DNA from: a virus
Lineage: Duplodnaviria; Heunggongvirae; Uroviricota; Caudoviricetes
Virus record (IMG/VR): IMGVR_UViG_2675903352_000005
DNA: 18,069 nucleotides
Direction: 5' to 3' (one strand)
Positions within the stretch are counted from its first letter, which is position 1. Each line of letters starts with the position of its first letter. Shown here piece after piece: positions 4,490 to 18,069 of this stretch. The position numbers and the translations under genes are program-made. The notes below the pieces were generated by a model. That model ran no database searches, was not told the DNA's origin, and saw only the letters and a program-made list of their open reading frames with translations.

Positions 4490-4939
4490 ATGCAAGAAGA
4501 AGCAAAGAAAATTCTTGTTGATTTATTGAAGAAGGCCAGCGATGGAATTGATTCCGCCATTGCATTCAGTCAGGCTCAGATTCCGGATGTTGTTCATCAG
4601 TTGCTGATATGGAATATGGTTAATAGCCTGATTAAAACATTAATAGCGATTTCAACAATCCCGCTGGTTTTCTGGTTTATGAAGAAACAGTACCAAAAAG
4701 TTGAAATTGGTAAGTTCGATGATGAAGGATGGTCATGGGATAAGGGAAAGCCTAAATACAAACCTACTCTGATTTGGGAAAGTAACGGTGAGATTAGTTT
4801 TCTTATCTTACCATTAGCAGCAGTTTTTGTTATGTGGGTAAGTTTTATTATTGCTGTAGTAACCAATATGACATGGTTAAAAATCTGGCTGGCACCTAAG
4901 TTATATCTAATCGAATACGCAGCATCACTAATTAAATAG
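4490..4939 (+). CDS. Hypothetical membrane protein (149 aa), AT-rich cargo gene
   Basis: AGGA sits 9 nt upstream of the ATG. Hydrophobic segments (LLIWNMVNSLIKTLIAISTIPLVFWFM, ISFLILPLAAVFVMWVSFIIAVVT, WLKIWLAPKLYLI). Base composition is clearly more AT-rich than the flanking phage genes. Followed by a hairpin. Confidence 0.55.
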   Translation: MQEEAKKILVDLLKKASDGIDSAIAFSQAQIPDVVHQLLIWNMVNSLIKTLIAISTIPLVFWFMKKQYQKVEIGKFDDEGWSWDKGKPKYKPTLIWESNGEISFLILPLAAVFVMWVSFIIAVVTNMTWLKIWLAPKLYLIEYAASLIK

Positions 4940-5301: not shown

Positions 5302-5480
5302 AAAAAGGCTAGTTTTTGCATTTCCATGGCGGCGGCAGCATGTTTAGTAATTTATTGATAATTAAAAGTTATTTCTCTTTTCACCTGTACAATATTTTTT
5401 TCTCCCTGTCATTAGACCAGTTTGCAATTAATTGAAATATATAAATAAACCTGATTTTCACCTGCCAGATGGAGTTGCTT

Positions 5481-6008
5481 ATGTCAAATGTGAGCGGGAT
5501 CGGTGATGCTTATTACTGGAGTGTTTTTAAAATCGCCGAGGCCTTTGGGCTTCACCGGGACACAGTAAAAAAACGGCTCCTCGCGGCCAACACTCCTGTG
5601 GCTGCGACTGTCAGGGGGAACCCCGTTTACGCCCTGCAGCATGTCGGGCCCGCCCTGTTTAGTGTGAAGCATGAGGCAGCAGACTCTGTTCATGATCCAT
5701 CCCGTATGGAGCCGAAAGAGAGAAAGGACTGGTACCAGTCTGAAAATGAAAGGATCAAGCTGGAAAAGGAGCAGCGAAAACTCATCCCAGTTGATGAAGT
5801 AGTCATCGTCTATTCGTCCATGAGAAAGGCTGTCGTCCAGGTTCTGGAGACAATTCCGGATGTTCTTGAACGCGATTGCGCCCTGACTCCTCAGGCCGTC
5901 GGCGTTGTACAGCAGGCCATTGATGACCTGCGATACACTCTTCAGGAAAAATCCTACGAGGCTTGTGCTGCTGAATTAATTCCTGATGAGGAAGGAGAGA
6001 GTCTCTAG
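5481..6008 (+). CDS. Terminase small subunit, Nu1-like (175 aa)
   Basis: GGAG sits 7 nt upstream of ATG 5481; the track start at 5469 has no ribosome-binding site. N-terminal helix-turn-helix region (YYWSVFKIAEAFGLHRDTVKKRL), acidic C-terminus, immediately upstream of the large terminase. Confidence 0.8.
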   Translation: MSNVSGIGDAYYWSVFKIAEAFGLHRDTVKKRLLAANTPVAATVRGNPVYALQHVGPALFSVKHEAADSVHDPSRMEPKERKDWYQSENERIKLEKEQRKLIPVDEVVIVYSSMRKAVVQVLETIPDVLERDCALTPQAVGVVQQAIDDLRYTLQEKSYEACAAELIPDEEGESL

Positions 6009-11891: not shown

Positions 11892-12215
11892 ATGGCAAAG
11901 AATTTTGTAGAAGAAGGAAAAACGGTGGCGATTGTTGCCAGTGCAGCCATCAGCAGCGGAGATCTGGTGCAGGTGGGTGATGTTTTTGCGGTGGCGCTGA
12001 CCGATATTCCACAGGGTGAAACAGGCGACGGCATGACCGAAGGTGTGTTTATGCTGCCTAAGCTGAAAACGGATGATATGAAAACGGGTAAGAAGGTTTA
12101 TCTGAAGTCTGGAAAAGTTCAGCTGACTAACAGCGGCTCTGATCCGCTGGTCGGGGTTGTCTGGGCAGATGCCGGAACCAGTGCAGAAGAAGTGCCGGTA
12201 AAACTCAATGTCTGA
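11892..12215 (+). CDS. Small head-associated protein (107 aa), possible decoration / DUF2190-like protein
   Basis: GGAG sits 7 nt upstream of ATG 11892; the track start at 11847 is an unsupported extension. Lies directly after the capsid gene, with a Gly/Val-rich beta-type composition. Function inferred from position only. Confidence 0.55.
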   Translation: MAKNFVEEGKTVAIVASAAISSGDLVQVGDVFAVALTDIPQGETGDGMTEGVFMLPKLKTDDMKTGKKVYLKSGKVQLTNSGSDPLVGVVWADAGTSAEEVPVKLNV

Positions 12216-12483
12216 TCCCTTTTCCCGGCTGACAGCGCGTATGGATGCGATCACGGTCAGAAAGATGGGAAAGACAGCCTCGATTAATGATGTCGATATG
12301 ACTGTGATCCCGGGAGAAACACTGGCAGAACTGAATGCTCTGTCCGGACCTGCGGTCTCTCTGGTGGTGTTTTCTTCGGGATACCGCCCACGGCGCGGGG
12401 ATCGCGTTGTTTATGACGGACAACAATGGACGGTCACACGGCATGAACGCTTTAACGGTAAGCCAATGATCTTTATTGAGTAA
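12208..12483 (+). CDS. Head-tail connector / head completion protein (91 aa)
   Basis: ATG overlaps the preceding stop (ATGTCTGA). Size and position between head and tail genes fit small adaptor proteins. Function is inferred from synteny. Confidence 0.55.
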   Translation: MSDPFSRLTARMDAITVRKMGKTASINDVDMTVIPGETLAELNALSGPAVSLVVFSSGYRPRRGDRVVYDGQQWTVTRHERFNGKPMIFIE

Positions 12484-13493: not shown

Positions 13494-14237
13494 ATGACCA
13501 CACCAAATCCACTGGCAAAGACGAAAGGTGCGGGGACGACGTTCTGGATGTATACCGGCAACGGCGATGCGTTTGCGAACCCTTTGTCGGACACTGACTG
13601 GCTGCGTCTTGCGATGGTGAAGGATCTGCAACCTGGCGAAATGACCGCTGATGCAGAAGATGACACTTATCTCGATGATGAGGATGCAGACTGGAAAACG
13701 ACAACCCAGGGGCAGAAATCCGTTGGTGATACTTCGGCGACGCTGGCCTGGCGTCCGGGTGACAGCGGGCAGAAAAAACTGGTTCAGTTGTTCGACTCCG
13801 GTGAAGTCTGCGCGTTTCGTATCAAATATCCCAACGGTACTGTTGATGTTTTCCGCGGCTGGCTGAGCTCACTGGGTAAAACCATTGCCTCAAAAGACGT
13901 GATGACCCGCACTGTGAAAATCAGCGGTGTGGGGCGTCCGTATCTGGCAGAGGAAGGCACTGAAACCGTGAGCGTTACCGGGCTGACGGTGGCACCGGCA
14001 TCTGCCAGTGTAAAAGTGGGAGCAACCACCACGCTGACCTTTGCAGTAAAACCTGACGGAGCCAGTGACAAAGCGATCAGTGTGCATTCGACAGATCCAC
14101 AGACTGCCACGGTGACCCTGAACGGGCTTGTGGCCACGGTGAAAGGCGTGAAGCAGGGCAGTGTCAGCATTGTGGGCATGACTTCTGACGGCGATTTTGT
14201 GGCAGTGGCTACGGTGGCTGTCAGCGCCGCAGGTTAA
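13494..14237 (+). CDS. V: Major tail protein V with C-terminal Ig-like domain (247 aa)
   Basis: AAGGAGG sits 5 nt upstream of ATG 13494. Near-collinear similarity to lambda V (KGAGTT.W.Y.G.GD..ANPLSD.DW.RLA.VKDL.PGE.TA...DD.YLDDEDADW...QGQKS.GDTS.TLAW.PG). The C-terminal 90 aa or so is Thr/Val/Ser-rich, like lambda V's Ig-like domain. Confidence 0.9.
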   Translation: MTTPNPLAKTKGAGTTFWMYTGNGDAFANPLSDTDWLRLAMVKDLQPGEMTADAEDDTYLDDEDADWKTTTQGQKSVGDTSATLAWRPGDSGQKKLVQLFDSGEVCAFRIKYPNGTVDVFRGWLSSLGKTIASKDVMTRTVKISGVGRPYLAEEGTETVSVTGLTVAPASASVKVGATTTLTFAVKPDGASDKAISVHSTDPQTATVTLNGLVATVKGVKQGSVSIVGMTSDGDFVAVATVAVSAAG

Positions 14238-14257: not shown

Positions 14258-14281
14258 GCCCCGGTTATCCGGGGCTTTTTT
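14258..14281 (+). terminator. Rho-independent terminator-like hairpin after V
   Basis: 7-bp stem GCCCCGG-(ttat)-CCGGGGC followed by six T, just upstream of the G ribosome-binding site. Probably partial termination that lowers expression of downstream tail genes. Confidence 0.5.
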
Positions 14282-14294
14282 GCAGGTGGAGAAC

Positions 14295-14684
14295 ATGATG
14301 TTTCTGAAACAGGGCACGTTTAATTATGAAAAGCAGTCCGTGGTGCTCAGTGAGCTGTCCGGGCTGCAGAGAATTGAATATCTGGCGTTTGTTCAGCAGC
14401 GAACGGCAAAGTTTGATGCCGAAGAGGGAGAACTGCCGGAGGCTGAACGACAGATTGCTTTTCTGCGGATGGGGATGGATATCAATGCCTGGCTGGTTTC
14501 CCGCTCACTGTGGAATGCGGAACAGTCTCAGGATGTTGAGACGCTTTGCGCATCCGTTATTACAACATGGTCGTATGATGCCCTGGGAGCGGGGGCGGAG
14601 ATGGTTCTGTCGCTGAGCGGTATGGGTGCCATTGAGAATGCCGGGGATCTGGAGCATGAGGTGCTGACGCCGGAAAAGTCCTGA
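14295..14684 (+). CDS. G: Tail assembly chaperone G (129 aa)
   Basis: GGTGGAG precedes ATG 14295. The N-terminus MFLKQGTFNYEKQSVVLSELSGLQRIEYLAF matches lambda G (MFLK...VTLSELSALQRIEHLA). Confidence 0.85.
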   Translation: MMFLKQGTFNYEKQSVVLSELSGLQRIEYLAFVQQRTAKFDAEEGELPEAERQIAFLRMGMDINAWLVSRSLWNAEQSQDVETLCASVITTWSYDALGAGAEMVLSLSGMGAIENAGDLEHEVLTPEKS

Positions 14685-15022
14685 CGCGGGAAATGCAGTT
14701 TGTCATGCGGCTTGCCCGGGAGTTCCGGCGGGCAGACTGGCGGCGGATGCTGTCGGAAATGTCGGCCACTGAGCTTGGTGAGTGGGGCGATTATTTCCGG
14801 ATGCAGAGCTTCAGTGATGTGTGGATGGATGCGCAGTTTGCCTCGCTGAAGGCATTGATCGTGAGAATGGTGTCCGGCAGCAGTGATGCTGCGGTGGCTG
14901 ATTTCAGCCTTTTACCGGAAGAGAACGGGATACCGGAGCGAACGGACGAAGAACTGATGCATCTTGGGGAAGGTATTTCCGGAGGTGTGCGTTATGGACC
15001 AGATAGCCAACCTGGTCATTGA
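14295..15022 (+). CDS. T: Tail assembly chaperone G-T fusion, made by a programmed -1 ribosomal frameshift near 14672-14678
   Basis: The -1 frame is open from 14636 to 15022 and encodes a lambda T-like sequence (LAREF.R.DWR.ML..MS.TE...W..YF...SF.D...D..F..L............D.A..DFSLL.......E.TDEE.M....G...GVRYGP). The only slip-prone heptamer in the overlap is G_GAA_AAG (14672-14678), one nucleotide away from lambda's G_GGA_AAG. Confidence 0.7.
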
Positions 15023-18000
15023 TTTGGGGATTGATGCGGCAGAGTTTAAAAATGAAATTCCCCGTATCAAAAACCTTCTGAATGGTGCAGCCAGCGATGC
15101 AGAACGGTCTTCTGCCCGTATGCAGCGTTTTATGGAGCGTCAGACTCAGGCCGCCCGGCAGACAACGCAGGCGGCGTCTTCGGCTGCAACAGCCGCATCC
15201 GTCCATGCGCAGACGGTGGAGAAGAACGCACAGGCTCATGAACGCATGGCCCGCGAGGTGGAGCAAACCCGCCAGCGTATGGAGGCACTGAGCCAGAAAA
15301 TGCGCGAGGAACAGGCGCAGGCCATGGCTCTGGCGGAGGCTCAGGATAAAGCGGCTGCTGCGTTTTATCGTCAGATTGACAGTGTGAAACAGGCCAGGGC
15401 GGGGCTGCAGGAATTACAGCGTATTCAGCAGCAGATCCGACAGGCCAGAAACAGTGGCGGGATTGGCCAGCAGGATTATCTGGCGCTGATTTCTGAGGTT
15501 ACTGCGAAAACCCGTGTTCTTACACAGGCTGAGGAAGAGGCTACCCGACAGAAAGTGGCGTTTATCCGTCAGCTTAAAGAGCAGGCAACCCGCCAGAATC
15601 TTTCATCTTCTGAGTTGCTTCGTGCTAAGGCAGCCCAGCTGGGGGTAAGCAGTGCTGCAGAAGTGTATATCCGCAAAATGGAGCAGGCAGGAAAAGCCAC
15701 GCATTCGCTGGGTCTGAAAAGTGCAGCAGCCCGCCAGGAGATAGGCGTTCTGATAGGTGAACTGGCCCGCGGCAATTTAGGGGCGCTGAGGGGATCCGGG
15801 ATAACGCTGGCTAACCGTGCCGGATGGATAGACACACTGATGTCACCGAAAGGCATGATGCCAGGAGCGGTTATTGGCGGTATTGCCGCGGCTGTCTATG
15901 GTCTGGGTAAAGCCTGGTATGACGGTCAGAAGGAGGGGGAAGAATTTAACCGCCAGCTGTCGCTGACGGGGCATTATGCCGGAGTCACTGCCGGGCAGCT
16001 GTGGACGCTCAGTCGTGCTATTTCCGGGAATGGTATCACGCAACATGCTGCAGCCGGTGCGCTTGCTCAGGTGGTGGGGAGTGGTGCATTTCGTGGAAAC
16101 GATATCGGTATGGTGGCGAGAGCTGCCGCACAGATGGAGCGATCGGTTGGCCAGTCGGTCAGCGATACCATAAATCAGTTTAAGCGGCTGAAGGATGATC
16201 CTGTAAATGCCGCGAAGTCTCTGGACAATGAGCTGCATTTTCTTACTGCCACTCAGCTTGAGCAGATACGCGTCCTTGGAGAGCAGGGGCGGTCCAGTGA
16301 TGCGGCACGGATAGCCATGTCTGCACTGGCAGAGGAAACCGGTCGGCGTACTGCGGATATTGATAATAACCTCAATGCGCTGGGTAGTACGCTGCAAACC
16401 TTGTCTGACTGGTGGAAGCAGTTCTGGGATGCGGCCATGAATATTGGTCGTGAAGACTCGCTGGATGCGCAGATTGCCACTTTGCAGGAGAAAGTGTCGC
16501 GGGCGAAAAGACTCCCCTGGACGGCATCATCTTCTCAGGTTGAATACGATCAGCAGCGTCTTAACGATCTTCAGGAGAAAAAACGCCAGAAAGATTTGCA
16601 GGATGCAAAAGAGCAGGCAGAGCGGAATTATCAGGAGCAACAGAAACGCCGTAATGCTGAAAATGCTGCACTGAACCGGATGAATGAAACGGAAGCAGCA
16701 CGACATCAGCGTGAAATTGCGCGTATTAATGCCATGCAGTACGCCGATCAGGCTGTCAGGGATGCAGCGATACAACGTGAAAATGAACGTTACGAGAAAG
16801 CCCTGGCATCCGGTAAGAAAAAAACACGCGAAACCCGTAATGATGAGGCCACCCGGTTATTGCTGCAGTACAGTCAGCAACAGGCACAGGTGGAAGGACA
16901 GATTGCTGCTGCAAGACAGTCAGCAGGCATTGCCACTGACAGGATGACAGAAGCGCATAAACAGCTTCTGGCTCTGCAGCAGCGCATCAGCGATCTGGAC
17001 GGGAAAAAACTGACGGCAGATGAAAAGAGTGTGCTGGCCCGTAAAGATGAACTGATTCAGGCACTGACGCTGCTGGATGTAAAACAGCAGGAGCTTCAGA
17101 AACAGACGGCACTCAACGATCTGAAGAAAAAAACAATTCAGCTGACCAGTCAACTGGCTGAAGAAGAGCGCGCTCAGCGTCAGCAACATGACCTGGATAT
17201 CGCCACGGTGGGTATGGGTGATCAGCAGCGGCAGCGATATCAGGTACAACTGAGTCTTCGCCAGAAATACCAGCAACAGCTGGAGCAGTTGAGGCGGGAT
17301 AGTGAGCAGAAAGGGACATATAACACGGATGACTACAGAAAGGCCGAGCAGGCGCTGACGGAGAGCCTGAACCGACAACTGAATGAGAATCGCCGTTACT
17401 GGCAACAGCTTGAAGTTGTGCAGGGTAACTGGAAAAACGGAGTCCTGCGTGCATTTCAGGATTTTACCGTGGATGCAGACAATACGGCAGGAACAGCAGA
17501 ACAGGTGTTCTCGTCAGCCTTCAGCAACATGGGAAATGGCCTGGCAACTTTTGTCACTACCGGCAAACTCAACTTCAAATCCTTCACCTCTTCGGTGCTG
17601 TCAGATATGGCGAAAATTCTGGCGCAGATGGCCATGATGCAGGCGGTGAAGGGGATTGGTTCGGCGTTTGGCTGGGGGAGTGCTGCCGCTGCCAGTGTGA
17701 CGCTCAATGCTGATGGTGGCGTTTATCAGTCGGCTGATTTGAGTCGCTACAGCGGCACGGTGGTTAACCGACCGACGTTTTTTGCTTTTGCAAAAGGCGC
17801 GGGTGTGATGGGGGAAGCGGGACCTGAAGCCATTCTGCCACTGCGCCGTGGTGCTGACGGTAAGCTGGGGGTTGTGGCAAATATTGGTGGTTCAGGTATG
17901 GCGATGTTTGAGCAGAATAACCATGTGGTGATTAACAACGACGGCACGAACGGGCAGATAGGTCCGGCTGCTCTGAAGGCGGTGTATGACATGGCCCGCA

Positions 18001-18068
18001 AGGGTGCCCGTGATGAAATTCAGACACAGATGCGTGATGGTGGCCTGTTCTCCGGAGGTGGACGATGA
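14994..18068 (+). CDS. H: Tail tape measure protein H (1024 aa)
   Basis: GGAGGTG precedes ATG 14994; the track start at 14964 lacks a ribosome-binding site. Long Gln/Ala/Arg/Glu-rich coiled-coil region with a central hydrophobic segment. The C-terminal roughly 50 aa (FEQNNHVVINNDGTNGQIGPAALKAVYDMARKGARDEIQTQMRDGGLFSGGGR) is identical to the lambda H C-terminus as I recall it. The stop overlaps the next gene's ATG (ATGA) at 18065. Confidence 0.9.
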   Translation: MDQIANLVIDLGIDAAEFKNEIPRIKNLLNGAASDAERSSARMQRFMERQTQAARQTTQAASSAATAASVHAQTVEKNAQAHERMAREVEQTRQRMEALSQKMREEQAQAMALAEAQDKAAAAFYRQIDSVKQARAGLQELQRIQQQIRQARNSGGIGQQDYLALISEVTAKTRVLTQAEEEATRQKVAFIRQLKEQATRQNLSSSELLRAKAAQLGVSSAAEVYIRKMEQAGKATHSLGLKSAAARQEIGVLIGELARGNLGALRGSGITLANRAGWIDTLMSPKGMMPGAVIGGIAAAVYGLGKAWYDGQKEGEEFNRQLSLTGHYAGVTAGQLWTLSRAISGNGITQHAAAGALAQVVGSGAFRGNDIGMVARAAAQMERSVGQSVSDTINQFKRLKDDPVNAAKSLDNELHFLTATQLEQIRVLGEQGRSSDAARIAMSALAEETGRRTADIDNNLNALGSTLQTLSDWWKQFWDAAMNIGREDSLDAQIATLQEKVSRAKRLPWTASSSQVEYDQQRLNDLQEKKRQKDLQDAKEQAERNYQEQQKRRNAENAALNRMNETEAARHQREIARINAMQYADQAVRDAAIQRENERYEKALASGKKKTRETRNDEATRLLLQYSQQQAQVEGQIAAARQSAGIATDRMTEAHKQLLALQQRISDLDGKKLTADEKSVLARKDELIQALTLLDVKQQELQKQTALNDLKKKTIQLTSQLAEEERAQRQQHDLDIATVGMGDQQRQRYQVQLSLRQKYQQQLEQLRRDSEQKGTYNTDDYRKAEQALTESLNRQLNENRRYWQQLEVVQGNWKNGVLRAFQDFTVDADNTAGTAEQVFSSAFSNMGNGLATFVTTGKLNFKSFTSSVLSDMAKILAQMAMMQAVKGIGSAFGWGSAAAASVTLNADGGVYQSADLSRYSGTVVNRPTFFAFAKGAGVMGEAGPEAILPLRRGADGKLGVVANIGGSGMAMFEQNNHVVINNDGTNGQIGPAALKAVYDMARKGARDEIQTQMRDGGLFSGGGR

Positions 18069-18069
18069 A

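What the first reader, a model, noticed from the sequence alone, without database searches (positions are those of the whole stretch)
14636..14684. G-T frameshift window with a non-canonical slippery heptamer
The lambda T-like frame is -1 relative to G and opens at 14636, so the shift must occur within the last 16 codons of G. The only candidate heptamer is G_GAA_AAG, one nucleotide away from lambda's G_GGA_AAG. The P-site re-pairing would be imperfect (GAA to GGA), so frameshift efficiency, and hence the G to G-T ratio, may differ from lambda.
Basis: partly seen in the sequence, partly recalled or inferred. Interest (0 to 1): 0.4.

Follow-up and report, generated by a model that had tools for sequence, protein, structure and literature searches.

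The report
Phage tail G-T frameshift site GGAAAAG
This is the ordinary programmed -1 ribosomal frameshift site that fuses the two tail-assembly chaperone genes (G and T) of a lambda-like E. coli phage; its GGAAAAG sequence differs from lambda's by one base but is the commonest version in this gene family.

Summary
The heptamer G_GAA_AAG is real (14672-14678) and in the G reading frame. It sits at exactly the position of lambda's G_GGA_AAG. One detail of the finding is wrong. The -1 (T) frame has a second stop, TGA 14657-14659, so it opens at 14660 and not at 14636. The shift must therefore occur in the last 7 sense codons of G, not 16, and A_AAG is the only slippery tetramer there.

In 363 related loci, anchored on the T domain, G_GAA_AAG occupies this position in 17 distinct codon contexts; G_GGA_AAG does so in 3. 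Position 1 stays G across four different preceding codons (CCG, GCG, GTG, CTG). The -1 frame peptide is conserved from the heptamer onward, whereas the annotated start ATG 14693 is not. Of 48 representatives of the gpG family, 37 end in x-Glu-Lys and only 4 in lambda's x-Gly-Lys.

The site is not new. Phage LLS (GenBank) annotates GGAAAAG as its -1 frameshift site, and Gifsy-1, with identical local sequence, annotates T as a frameshift product.

I found no conserved downstream RNA structure. An upstream Shine-Dalgarno-like GAGGUG is only a candidate stimulator. Efficiency is unmeasured; in vitro work calls this heptamer poorly slippery.

The parts
13494..14237 (+). Major tail protein V homologue, upstream neighbour of G
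   Evidence: Matches PF16461 (E = 1.5e-66) plus a Big_2 domain. The start coordinate is taken from the Ayreon annotation, offset 5505.
14258..14282 (+). Intrinsic terminator-like hairpin plus T-run between V and G
   Evidence: Seven G-C pairs, a 4-nt loop, then TTTTTT. The same site is annotated as a terminator in Ayreon and mEp460.
14298..14684 (+). Gene G, tail assembly chaperone, 128 aa. An alternative ATG lies at 14295.
   Evidence: Matches PF06894 (E = 1.8e-39) and phrog_42 (E = 1e-51). Homologues start MFLK. PGAP calls a 387-nt gpG.
14657..14659 (+). TGA stop in the -1 (T) frame, the upstream limit of the shift window
   Evidence: Frame-by-frame translation.
14658..14663 (+). Shine-Dalgarno-like GAGGUG, 8 nt upstream of the heptamer. 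Candidate stimulator only.
   Evidence: Duplex with the 16S 3' end is -9.3 kcal/mol. A site this strong falls in a 12-position span at 3.4% of positions in this window. Weaker equivalents occur throughout the PEK clade, but none in the mEp043/LLS clade.
14660..14684 (+). Overlap in which both the G frame and the T frame are open. The shift must occur here.
14672..14678 (+). Slippery heptamer G_GAA_AAG (P-site GAA, A-site AAG)
   Evidence: It is the positional homologue of lambda's G_GGA_AAG. It recurs in 17 codon contexts across relatives. The same string is annotated as the -1 PRF site in phage LLS.
14678..15022 (+). T segment read in the -1 frame after the slip: 114 codons plus stop. Predicted G-T fusion is 241 aa.
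   Evidence: Matches PF06223 (E = 5e-15), phrog_39 and the fused profile phrog_32165. The reconstructed fusion aligns as one segment across the junction with lambda gpGT (E = 7e-42) and LLS GT (E = 1e-44).
14682..14684 (+). G-frame stop TGA, one codon after the heptamer
14693..14695 (+). ATG used by database annotations as an independent T start. Probably an internal Met of G-T.
   Evidence: Annotated as the T start in mEp460, Tritos and PGAP. The Met is not conserved; relatives have CTG, ATT, CTT or CGT. The GGGA lies only 2 nt upstream of the ATG (sequence).
14994..18069 (+). Tape measure protein H homologue. It runs off the end of the window.
   Evidence: Matches PF06791, PF09718 and PF24622. 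The start coordinate is taken from the Ayreon annotation.

Best explanation
A small fraction of ribosomes translating gene G slip back one nucleotide on G_GAA_AAG (14672-14678). They then continue in the T frame from GUC at 14678. This yields a 241-aa G-T fusion (...TPEK-VLTREMQF...) alongside the abundant 128-aa G, as in phage lambda.

The main driver is E. coli's single tRNA-Lys (anticodon mnm5s2UUU), which moves from AAG to AAA. The tRNA-Glu on GAA re-pairs with GGA through G-C, G.U and A-U pairs. That is a near-cognate match with a wobble pair in the middle position.

Shown here:
- gene order and the two homologies;
- the frame relationship and the narrow shift window;
- positional homology with lambda's site;
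- strong conservation of the heptamer, including its first G;
- -1 frame coding that starts right after the heptamer.

Inferred, not shown:
- that slippage actually occurs;
- its efficiency;
- the contribution of the P-site tRNA;
- any role for the upstream GAGGUG.
For: Architecture:
- Gene order is V, G (PF06894), T (PF06223, -1 frame), H.

Shift window:
- It is 22 nt and contains one slippery tetramer.
- It is only 16 nt in some Salmonella relatives that carry the same heptamer.

Family alignment:
- A gapless 22-sequence alignment has A_AAG invariant. Position 1 equals position 2 in 22 of 22 rows.
- In 363 loci anchored on the T-domain LAREF motif, G_GAA_AAG appears in 17 distinct contexts. 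The preceding codon is CCG, GCG, GTG or CTG, while the codon before that varies freely.
- The C-terminal x-E-K is kept although the preceding ~20 residues are hypervariable.
- 37 of 48 family representatives end in xEK.

Fusion product:
- The junction peptide [VA][LF]xxE[LMIV]xF..LAREF is conserved in the -1 frame immediately after the heptamer.
- The reconstructed fusion aligns across the junction with lambda gpGT and with the annotated LLS fusion.

Existing annotation:
- LLS annotates GGAAAAG as its -1 PRF site.
- Gifsy-1, with an identical ACG CCG GAA AAG TCC TGA, annotates T as a frameshift product.

Precedent in the literature:
- A_AAG is the most shift-prone tetramer in E. coli (PMC4066793).
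- Non-canonical NNA_AAG sites are used by IS1222 and occur in B. subtilis cdd (PMC5009743).
- GAA-to-GGA re-pairing through G:U is proposed for mycobacteriophage GGGGGAA sites (PMC10885494).

Viability:
- Isolated phages that carry this module (Ayreon, phi458, mEp460, cdtI) have complete genome records with named E. coli hosts.
Against: - I found no direct measurement for this heptamer in a phage context.
- In a reconstituted E. coli system, AUG GAA AAG gave mainly 0-frame product and was described as unfavourable for slippage (PMC6924986).
- A_AAG without a stimulator is barely above background in vivo, about 0.15% (PMC4066793).
- No conserved downstream structure was found. The consensus fold is -2.5 kcal/mol. 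The local fold has z = -0.97.
- In a few distant relatives position 1 is A or C. P-site re-pairing is therefore not strictly required in this family.
Confidence: 0.85

Rival explanations
1. T is made as a separate protein from ATG 14693. This would happen either by termination-reinitiation after the G stop 8 nt upstream or from its own ribosome-binding site, as most database records annotate it.
For: mEp460, Tritos and NCBI PGAP annotate T as 14693-15022. The ATG lies 8 nt after the G stop codon, a distance at which translational coupling is possible.
Against: - The Met is found in only 4 of 22 aligned relatives. Gifsy-1 has CTG, the Salmonella group ATT, and the others CTG, CTT or CGT.
- The 5 codons between the heptamer and the ATG are conserved as -1 frame peptide.
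- They match the fused G-T profile phrog_32165 from T-frame residue 4.
- The only SD-like GGGA lies 2 nt from the ATG.
- Ayreon's annotators chose a different start and still called the product GpGT-like.
- From general knowledge: in lambda the functional species is the fusion, not free T (Xu, Hendrix and Duda 2013/2014, as summarised in PMC5009743).
Confidence: 0.07
2. Slippage involves tRNA-Lys alone on A_AAG, either in the A site or in the P site with TCC waiting. tRNA-Glu makes no useful -1 pairing. The heptamer would then be functionally a tetramer, as at IS1222 (G_CGA_AAG).
For: - A_AAG is the only invariant part across the family.
- Relatives exist with A_GAA_AAG, C_GAA_AAG, G_GCA_AAA and A_GTA_AAG at the same position.
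- Single-tRNA slippage on NNA_AAG is documented (PMC5009743).
- The protein product would be identical, so sequence alone cannot separate the two models.
Against: - Position 1 is G in all 17 G_GAA_AAG contexts, and in every case where a sense codon follows AAG. This holds although it is a synonymous third position of Pro, Ala, Val or Leu codons and the neighbouring third positions vary.
- LLS changed the amino acid (Ala to Val, GCG to GTG) but kept the G.
- The exceptions with A or C at position 1 all have a stop codon directly after AAG, a different context.
Confidence: 0.2
3. The upstream GAGGUG (14658-14663) pairs with the 16S rRNA 3' end of the translating ribosome and stimulates the shift, as the SD-like element does in dnaX. 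This would compensate for the weaker heptamer.
For: - It has 6 nt of perfect complementarity (-9.3 kcal/mol) 8 nt upstream. That is inside the 6-17 nt range used for such stimulators (PMC4066793).
- Chance occurrence in this window is about 3%.
- Every PEK-clade variant has some SD-like element at 8-13 nt, with energies of -5.6 to -9.5 kcal/mol.
- One metagenomic variant has AAGGAGGUG at the same place.
Against: - The mEp043, Eeyore, LLS and Phi06_2987 clade uses the same heptamer with no SD-like sequence (-0.3 to -1.0 kcal/mol).
- Some G_GGA_AAG loci do have one, for example L097 at -10.3 kcal/mol. There is therefore no clean association.
- The Glu/Gly/Asp-rich linker produces GAGG and GGAG easily by composition.
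- Close relatives (mEp460, cdtI) have the weaker GAGGCG, for which the chance level is 27%.
Confidence: 0.25
4. The site is a decayed lambda-type heptamer (GGA mutated to GAA) in a defective prophage, and no G-T is made.
For: It is one transition away from the canonical site. The heptamer performs poorly in vitro.
Against: - The same heptamer occurs in phages with complete genome records and named E. coli hosts: Ayreon, phi458, mEp460, cdtI, and mEp043 and LLS.
- The module is present in 1848 of 5426 complete E. coli genomes.
- It is found in several deep clades and in most of the family.
Confidence: 0.02

Closest known systems
Phage lambda G / G-T programmed -1 frameshift (G_GGA_AAG; Levin, Hendrix and Casjens 1993; Xu, Hendrix and Duda 2004)
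   Same: - Gene order V-G-T-H, with the same Pfam families for G and T.
- T lies in the -1 frame.
- The heptamer is at the same register relative to the T domain.
- A-site codon AAG and first base G are the same.
- No conserved downstream structure was found.

   Different: - The P-site codon is GAA (Glu) instead of GGA (Gly). Re-pairing therefore has a G.U pair in the middle position rather than at the wobble position.
- The G stop lies 1 codon after the heptamer instead of 5.
- The frame overlap is 22 nt rather than 61 nt.
Phage LLS (PQ299149.1) and Salmonella prophage Gifsy-1 (NC_010392.1) G-T annotations
   Same: - LLS has the same heptamer GGAAAAG at the same position. It is explicitly annotated as the 'minus-one programmed translational frameshift site', with a joined CDS.
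- Gifsy-1 has the identical ACG CCG GAA AAG TCC TGA, and its T is annotated as made by frameshifting.
   Different: These are annotations, not experiments. The LLS G protein is only ~35% identical to the window's and is preceded by GTG. Gifsy-1 G is 55% identical.
Single-tRNA or hexanucleotide -1 frameshift sites NNA_AAG (IS1222 G_CGA_AAG; B. subtilis cdd A_CGA_AAG; Licznar et al. 2003)
   Same: The P-site codon is non-canonical, ahead of the highly shifty A_AAG read by E. coli tRNA-Lys (PMC5009743).
   Different: - According to the literature, shifting on the A_AAG tetramer rises well above background only with a strong downstream structure: about 0.15% without and 5.6% with the IS3 pseudoknot (PMC4066793). 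No such structure is detectable here.
- Here the P-site tRNA can still form two Watson-Crick pairs plus one G.U.
E. coli dnaX -1 frameshift (A_AAA_AAG with an upstream SD-like element and a downstream hairpin)
   Same: The A-site codon is AAG. The window has an SD-like sequence at a compatible distance upstream.
   Different: There is no downstream hairpin. The SD-like element is not conserved across the family. The expected efficiency is a few percent or less, against ~50% or more for dnaX.

Membership tests
Lambda-type G / G-T tail assembly chaperone frameshift | Two overlapping ORFs lie between the major tail protein gene and the tape measure gene | tested here: met
   V 13494-14237, G 14298-14684, T frame 14660-15022, H from 14994.
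Lambda-type G / G-T tail assembly chaperone frameshift | The upstream ORF is homologous to gpG and the downstream ORF to gpT | tested here: met
   PF06894 at 1.8e-39 and PF06223 at 5.1e-15. Also phrog_42, phrog_39 and the fused profile phrog_32165.
Lambda-type G / G-T tail assembly chaperone frameshift | The downstream ORF is in the -1 frame, lacks a conserved start of its own, and codes from the slip site onward | tested here: met
   Frames were checked. Met 14693 is present in 4 of 22 relatives, and the -1 peptide is conserved from the heptamer. The fusion aligns across the junction with lambda gpGT.
Lambda-type G / G-T tail assembly chaperone frameshift | A slippery sequence lies in the overlap at the conserved position | tested here: met
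   G_GAA_AAG at 14672-14678, in the same alignment columns as lambda's G_GGA_AAG. It recurs in 17 codon contexts.
Lambda-type G / G-T tail assembly chaperone frameshift | The G-T fusion protein is actually produced at a low fixed ratio and is needed for tail assembly | not testable with these tools
   Needs a reporter assay, immunoblot or mass spectrometry. I found no published measurement for this heptamer in phage.
Canonical X_XXY_YYZ tandem-slippage heptamer | Positions 1-3 are identical and positions 4-6 are identical, so both tRNAs keep two non-wobble pairs after the shift | tested here: not met
   Positions 1-3 are G, G, A, so the P-site -1 codon GGA mismatches tRNA-Glu at the middle base (G.U). 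Positions 4-7 (A_AAG) are canonical.
Z_ZZN tetramer / NNA_AAG single-tRNA slippage sites | A_AAG is in frame, with AAG as the 0-frame codon | tested here: met
   AAG at 14676-14678 is preceded by A 14675.
dnaX-like stimulated -1 frameshift | An SD-like sequence lies 6-17 nt upstream of the shift site | tested here: inconclusive
   GAGGUG sits 8 nt upstream at -9.3 kcal/mol, about 3% by chance. It is not associated with the GAA-type heptamer across clades.
dnaX-like stimulated -1 frameshift | A stable, conserved hairpin or pseudoknot lies 5-9 nt downstream | tested here: not met
   The local fold has z = -0.97. The consensus structure of 22 relatives is -2.5 kcal/mol, with 7 pairs far downstream. 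There was no significant Rfam match.

The most novel reading that the evidence does not exclude
G_GAA_AAG may reach a lambda-like efficiency of a few percent in vivo despite the middle-position G.U in P-site re-pairing. This heptamer is used as the 'poorly slippery' control in reconstituted translation, yet it is the majority slip site of the gpG family. It shows no conserved RNA structure. If efficiency is high, either second-position G.U pairing by tRNA-Glu(mnm5s2UUC) is well tolerated in the P site, or an unrecognised stimulator is at work. Candidates are the SD-like GAGGUG, the acidic nascent linker ending in Pro-Glu-Lys, or the nearby stop codon.
Probability: 0.25. Interest if true: 0.45.

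Novelty: already known. Interest (0 to 1): 0.22.

Why it matters
Practically, this G-T module is present in about a third of complete E. coli genomes (1848 of 5426). It is routinely annotated as two separate genes, with T starting at a non-conserved ATG. The real product is most likely a 241-aa fusion.

Scientifically there is a modest point. Lambda's textbook heptamer is the minority form in its own family. The common form is one that biochemists treat as nearly non-slippery. A simple reporter comparison of GGA against GAA, with and without the first G and the upstream GAGGUG, would show how much P-site pairing matters in vivo. It would also show whether these phages run on a lower G-T:G ratio than lambda.

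Tried and rejected
1. Downstream stimulatory structure.
- The fold of 14679-14770 is no better than shuffled sequence (z = -0.97).
- RNAalifold on 22 relatives gives -2.5 kcal/mol.
- The apparent stem UCCUG/CGGGA is broken without compensation in Gifsy-1, L116 and L130.

2. SD-like compensation specific to GAA-type sites. There is no clean association across clades.

3. Rfam. There was no meaningful match.

4. Phage tRNAs that might alter decoding. None are encoded in the window.

5. Transcriptional slippage. I judge a run of four A too short (general knowledge); this was not tested further.

6. Natural fused G-T ORFs (P0032, P0046) as evidence of the junction. They are internal deletions, not slippage products.

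7. Searches that gave little.
- Viral-contig scans with the window's G and with lambda G returned only near-identical copies.
- Scans with the Serratia G and with P0163 found nothing.
- The genome scan gave only 13 loci.
- The 47-sequence alignment was too divergent to scan with.

8. Literature.
- Xu et al. 2004 and Licznar et al. 2003 are not held.
- String searches for GGAAAAG mostly returned primer sequences.

Full report
WHAT THE WINDOW IS

The region is the tail-gene block of a lambdoid E. coli phage. It is 99.5% identical to phage Ayreon and about 98% identical to mEp460 and cdtI. The gene order is as follows:
- V, the major tail protein, with PF16461 plus a Big_2 domain (13494-14237);
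- a terminator-like hairpin;
- G (14298-14684; PF06894, E = 1.8e-39);
- a T-like ORF in the -1 frame (PF06223, E = 5e-15);
- the tape measure gene, from 14994.

CHECKING THE OBSERVATION

The heptamer GGAAAAG is at 14672-14678, with GAA and AAG as G-frame codons. The G stop is TGA at 14682.

The -1 frame has TGA at 14633 and a second TGA at 14657-14659. It therefore opens at 14660, and the shift must happen within GAG GTG CTG ACG CCG GAA AAG TCC. That is 7 sense codons rather than 16.

In that stretch A_AAG is the only Z_ZZN tetramer. G_GAA_AAG is the only sequence in which a P-site tRNA could also re-pair.

The heptamer string is expected about 3 times in both strands of the window. With about 6 allowed in-frame positions, a chance placement is roughly 5e-4 (my arithmetic).

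POSITIONAL HOMOLOGY WITH LAMBDA

Lambda reads TCT GCG GGA AAG TGT and then, after the slip, GKVFDGELSFALKLAREMGRPDWRAML. The window reads ACG CCG GAA AAG TCC and then GKVLTREMQFVMRLAREFRRADWRRML.

Twenty-two diverse relatives align without a single gap over 140 nt. The heptamer sits in the same columns in all of them.

A reconstructed 241-aa fusion aligns as one segment across the junction with lambda gpGT (E = 7e-42). It also aligns with the annotated fusion of phage LLS (E = 1e-44), whose annotated length my reconstruction reproduces exactly.

IS THE HEPTAMER FUNCTIONAL? COMPARATIVE EVIDENCE

1. C-terminal motif. G proteins down to 54% identity keep a C-terminal (T/S)PEK(S/P), although the preceding ~20 residues are hypervariable in sequence and length.

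2. Codon contexts. I anchored 363 loci on the T-domain LAREF motif.
- The homologous position holds G_GAA_AAG in 17 distinct codon contexts. The preceding codon is CCG, GCG, GTG or CTG, and the codon before that takes more than ten forms.
- It holds G_GGA_AAG in 3 contexts, and A_AAA_AAG in phage CP-1639.
- A few other forms occur: G_GCA_AAA, G_GAA_AAA, A_GAA_AAG, C_GAA_AAG and A_GTA_AAG.
- Locus counts are biased by my queries, so I rely on distinct contexts.

3. First base. The first G is a synonymous third position, yet it is invariant wherever a sense codon follows AAG. LLS even changed Ala to Val (GCG to GTG) and kept the G. The only A or C at position 1 occurs where a stop codon follows AAG directly.

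4. Shift window in relatives. In some Salmonella relatives the frame overlap is only 16 nt and still contains the same heptamer.

5. Junction peptide. The -1 frame peptide immediately after the heptamer is conserved as [VA][LF]xxE[LMIV]xF..LAREF. The Met at 14693 is present in only 4 of 22 aligned rows. The T frame also matches a PHROG profile of fused G-T proteins from residue 4, upstream of that Met.

6. Family census. An exhaustive search of 50%-identity cluster representatives returned 78 family members. Of 48 near-full-length ones:
- 37 end in x-E-K plus 0, 1, 5 or 8 residues, with x being A, P, L or V;
- 4 end in x-G-K, the lambda type;
- 3 end in x-K-K;
- 3 end in x-A-K.

The heptamer called 'non-canonical' is therefore the family norm, and lambda is the exception.

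IS IT ALREADY KNOWN?

Yes, at the level of annotation.
- GenBank PQ299149.1 (phage LLS) carries a misc_feature 'minus-one programmed translational frameshift site GGAAAAG' and a joined CDS.
- RefSeq Gifsy-1 has the identical ACG CCG GAA AAG TCC TGA. It describes its T as 'part of bacteriophage tail assembly chaperone gpG by translational frameshifting'.
- Ayreon's annotators call T 'GpGT-like'.
- The PRFect paper lists a two-plus-four-base motif class among recurring phage slip sites. It also notes GAA-to-GGA re-pairing through G:U in mycobacteriophage GGGGGAA sites (PMC10885494).
- In contrast, mEp460, Tritos and NCBI's PGAP annotate G and T as separate genes with T starting at ATG 14693.
- The module occurs in 1848 of 5426 complete E. 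coli genomes.

HOW IT LIKELY WORKS

In E. coli, A_AAG is the most shift-prone tetramer, because the single tRNA-Lys pairs better with AAA than with AAG (PMC5009743; PMC4066793).

After the slip, tRNA-Glu (anticodon mnm5s2UUC; general knowledge) faces GGA. It can form G-C, G.U and A-U pairs. The conserved first G argues that this partial re-pairing matters.

Experimental context from the literature:
- In a reconstituted system, AUG GAA AAG gave mainly 0-frame product at all EF-G concentrations, whereas AUG GGA AAG shifted readily (PMC6924986).
- A_AAG alone is about 0.15% in vivo but 5.6% with a pseudoknot.
- In dnaX, with its stimulators, a mismatch at position 1 lowers shifting from 80% to 30-40% but does not abolish it (PMC6787027).

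The expected efficiency here is therefore at or below lambda's. Lambda's G to G-T molar ratio is about 30:1 (PMC5009743).

STIMULATORS

I looked for stimulators and found little.
- No downstream structure is supported. The local fold has z = -0.97. The consensus fold of 22 relatives is -2.5 kcal/mol. Rfam gave nothing.
- An SD-like GAGGUG lies 8 nt upstream, at -9.3 kcal/mol, with about a 3% chance of occurring in this window. Every PEK-clade variant has something similar.
- However, the mEp043/LLS clade uses the same heptamer without any SD-like element, and some GGA-type loci have one.
- I therefore rate the SD-like element as a candidate only.

RIVALS
- Independent translation of T from ATG 14693 is unlikely, for the reasons given above.
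- Lys-only slippage gives the same protein and cannot be excluded. It is disfavoured by the conserved first G.
- A decayed, non-functional site is excluded by its presence in isolated phages with complete genome records and named hosts and by its wide distribution.

VERDICT

The finding is real and correctly interpreted in its essentials, with one coordinate error that narrows the shift window. It is an ordinary, already-annotated kind of phage G-T frameshift site, not a novelty.

The residual interest is that the family's usual heptamer is one regarded as poorly slippery, and its in vivo efficiency has apparently not been measured.

Noticed in passing
window 14258-14282: A strong intrinsic-terminator-like hairpin (7 G-C pairs, 4-nt loop, TTTTTT) sits between the major tail gene V and G. 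It is also annotated as a terminator in Ayreon and mEp460. It could lower G, T and H expression relative to V.
   Followed up: partly
window 5762-5768, 4744-4750, 12267-12273: Other in-frame shifty heptamers occur: G_GAA_AAG in ORF 5469-6008, and G_GGA_AAG in ORFs 4490-4939 and 12208-12483. Their -1 extensions are only 8, 1 and 4 codons, so they are probably incidental.
   Followed up: partly
L293, L296, L299 (metagenome contigs), about 10 nt before the G stop: These relatives have A_GAA_AAG_TAA or C_GAA_AAG_TAA at the homologous position. The first base is not G, and in each case the G-frame stop follows AAG directly. This suggests a stop-codon-assisted Lys-only slip as an alternative solution.
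   Followed up: partly
L093, L110-L113, L291, L312; L289, L297; L301: Further non-canonical sites occur at the same position: CTG GCA AAA TAG (G_GCA_AAA plus stop), CTG GAA AAA TAG (G_GAA_AAA plus stop) and GCA GTA AAG (A_GTA_AAG). L301 also has a canonical A_AAA_AAG 9 codons upstream.
   Followed up: no
proteins P0046 (212 aa) and P0032 (215 aa): These are natural single-ORF G-T fusions in E. coli assemblies. Each was created by an internal deletion joining mid or late G to the T frame. In P0046 the join reads ...SYDA|GKVLTREMQ.... They are not slippage products.
   Followed up: partly
L085 (JAEWTL010000010.1); hit H68 (MW057783.1): A contig labelled 'MAG: Bacillota bacterium' carries a G gene 99% identical to the window's. 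A record named 'Campylobacter phage CJLB-4' carries a lambda-type G. Both look like mis-binning or contamination by E. coli phage DNA.
   Followed up: no
window 14295-14300: There is a tandem ATG ATG at the start of G. Homologues begin MFLK and PGAP uses the second ATG, so 14298 is the likely start and 14295 an alternative.
   Followed up: partly
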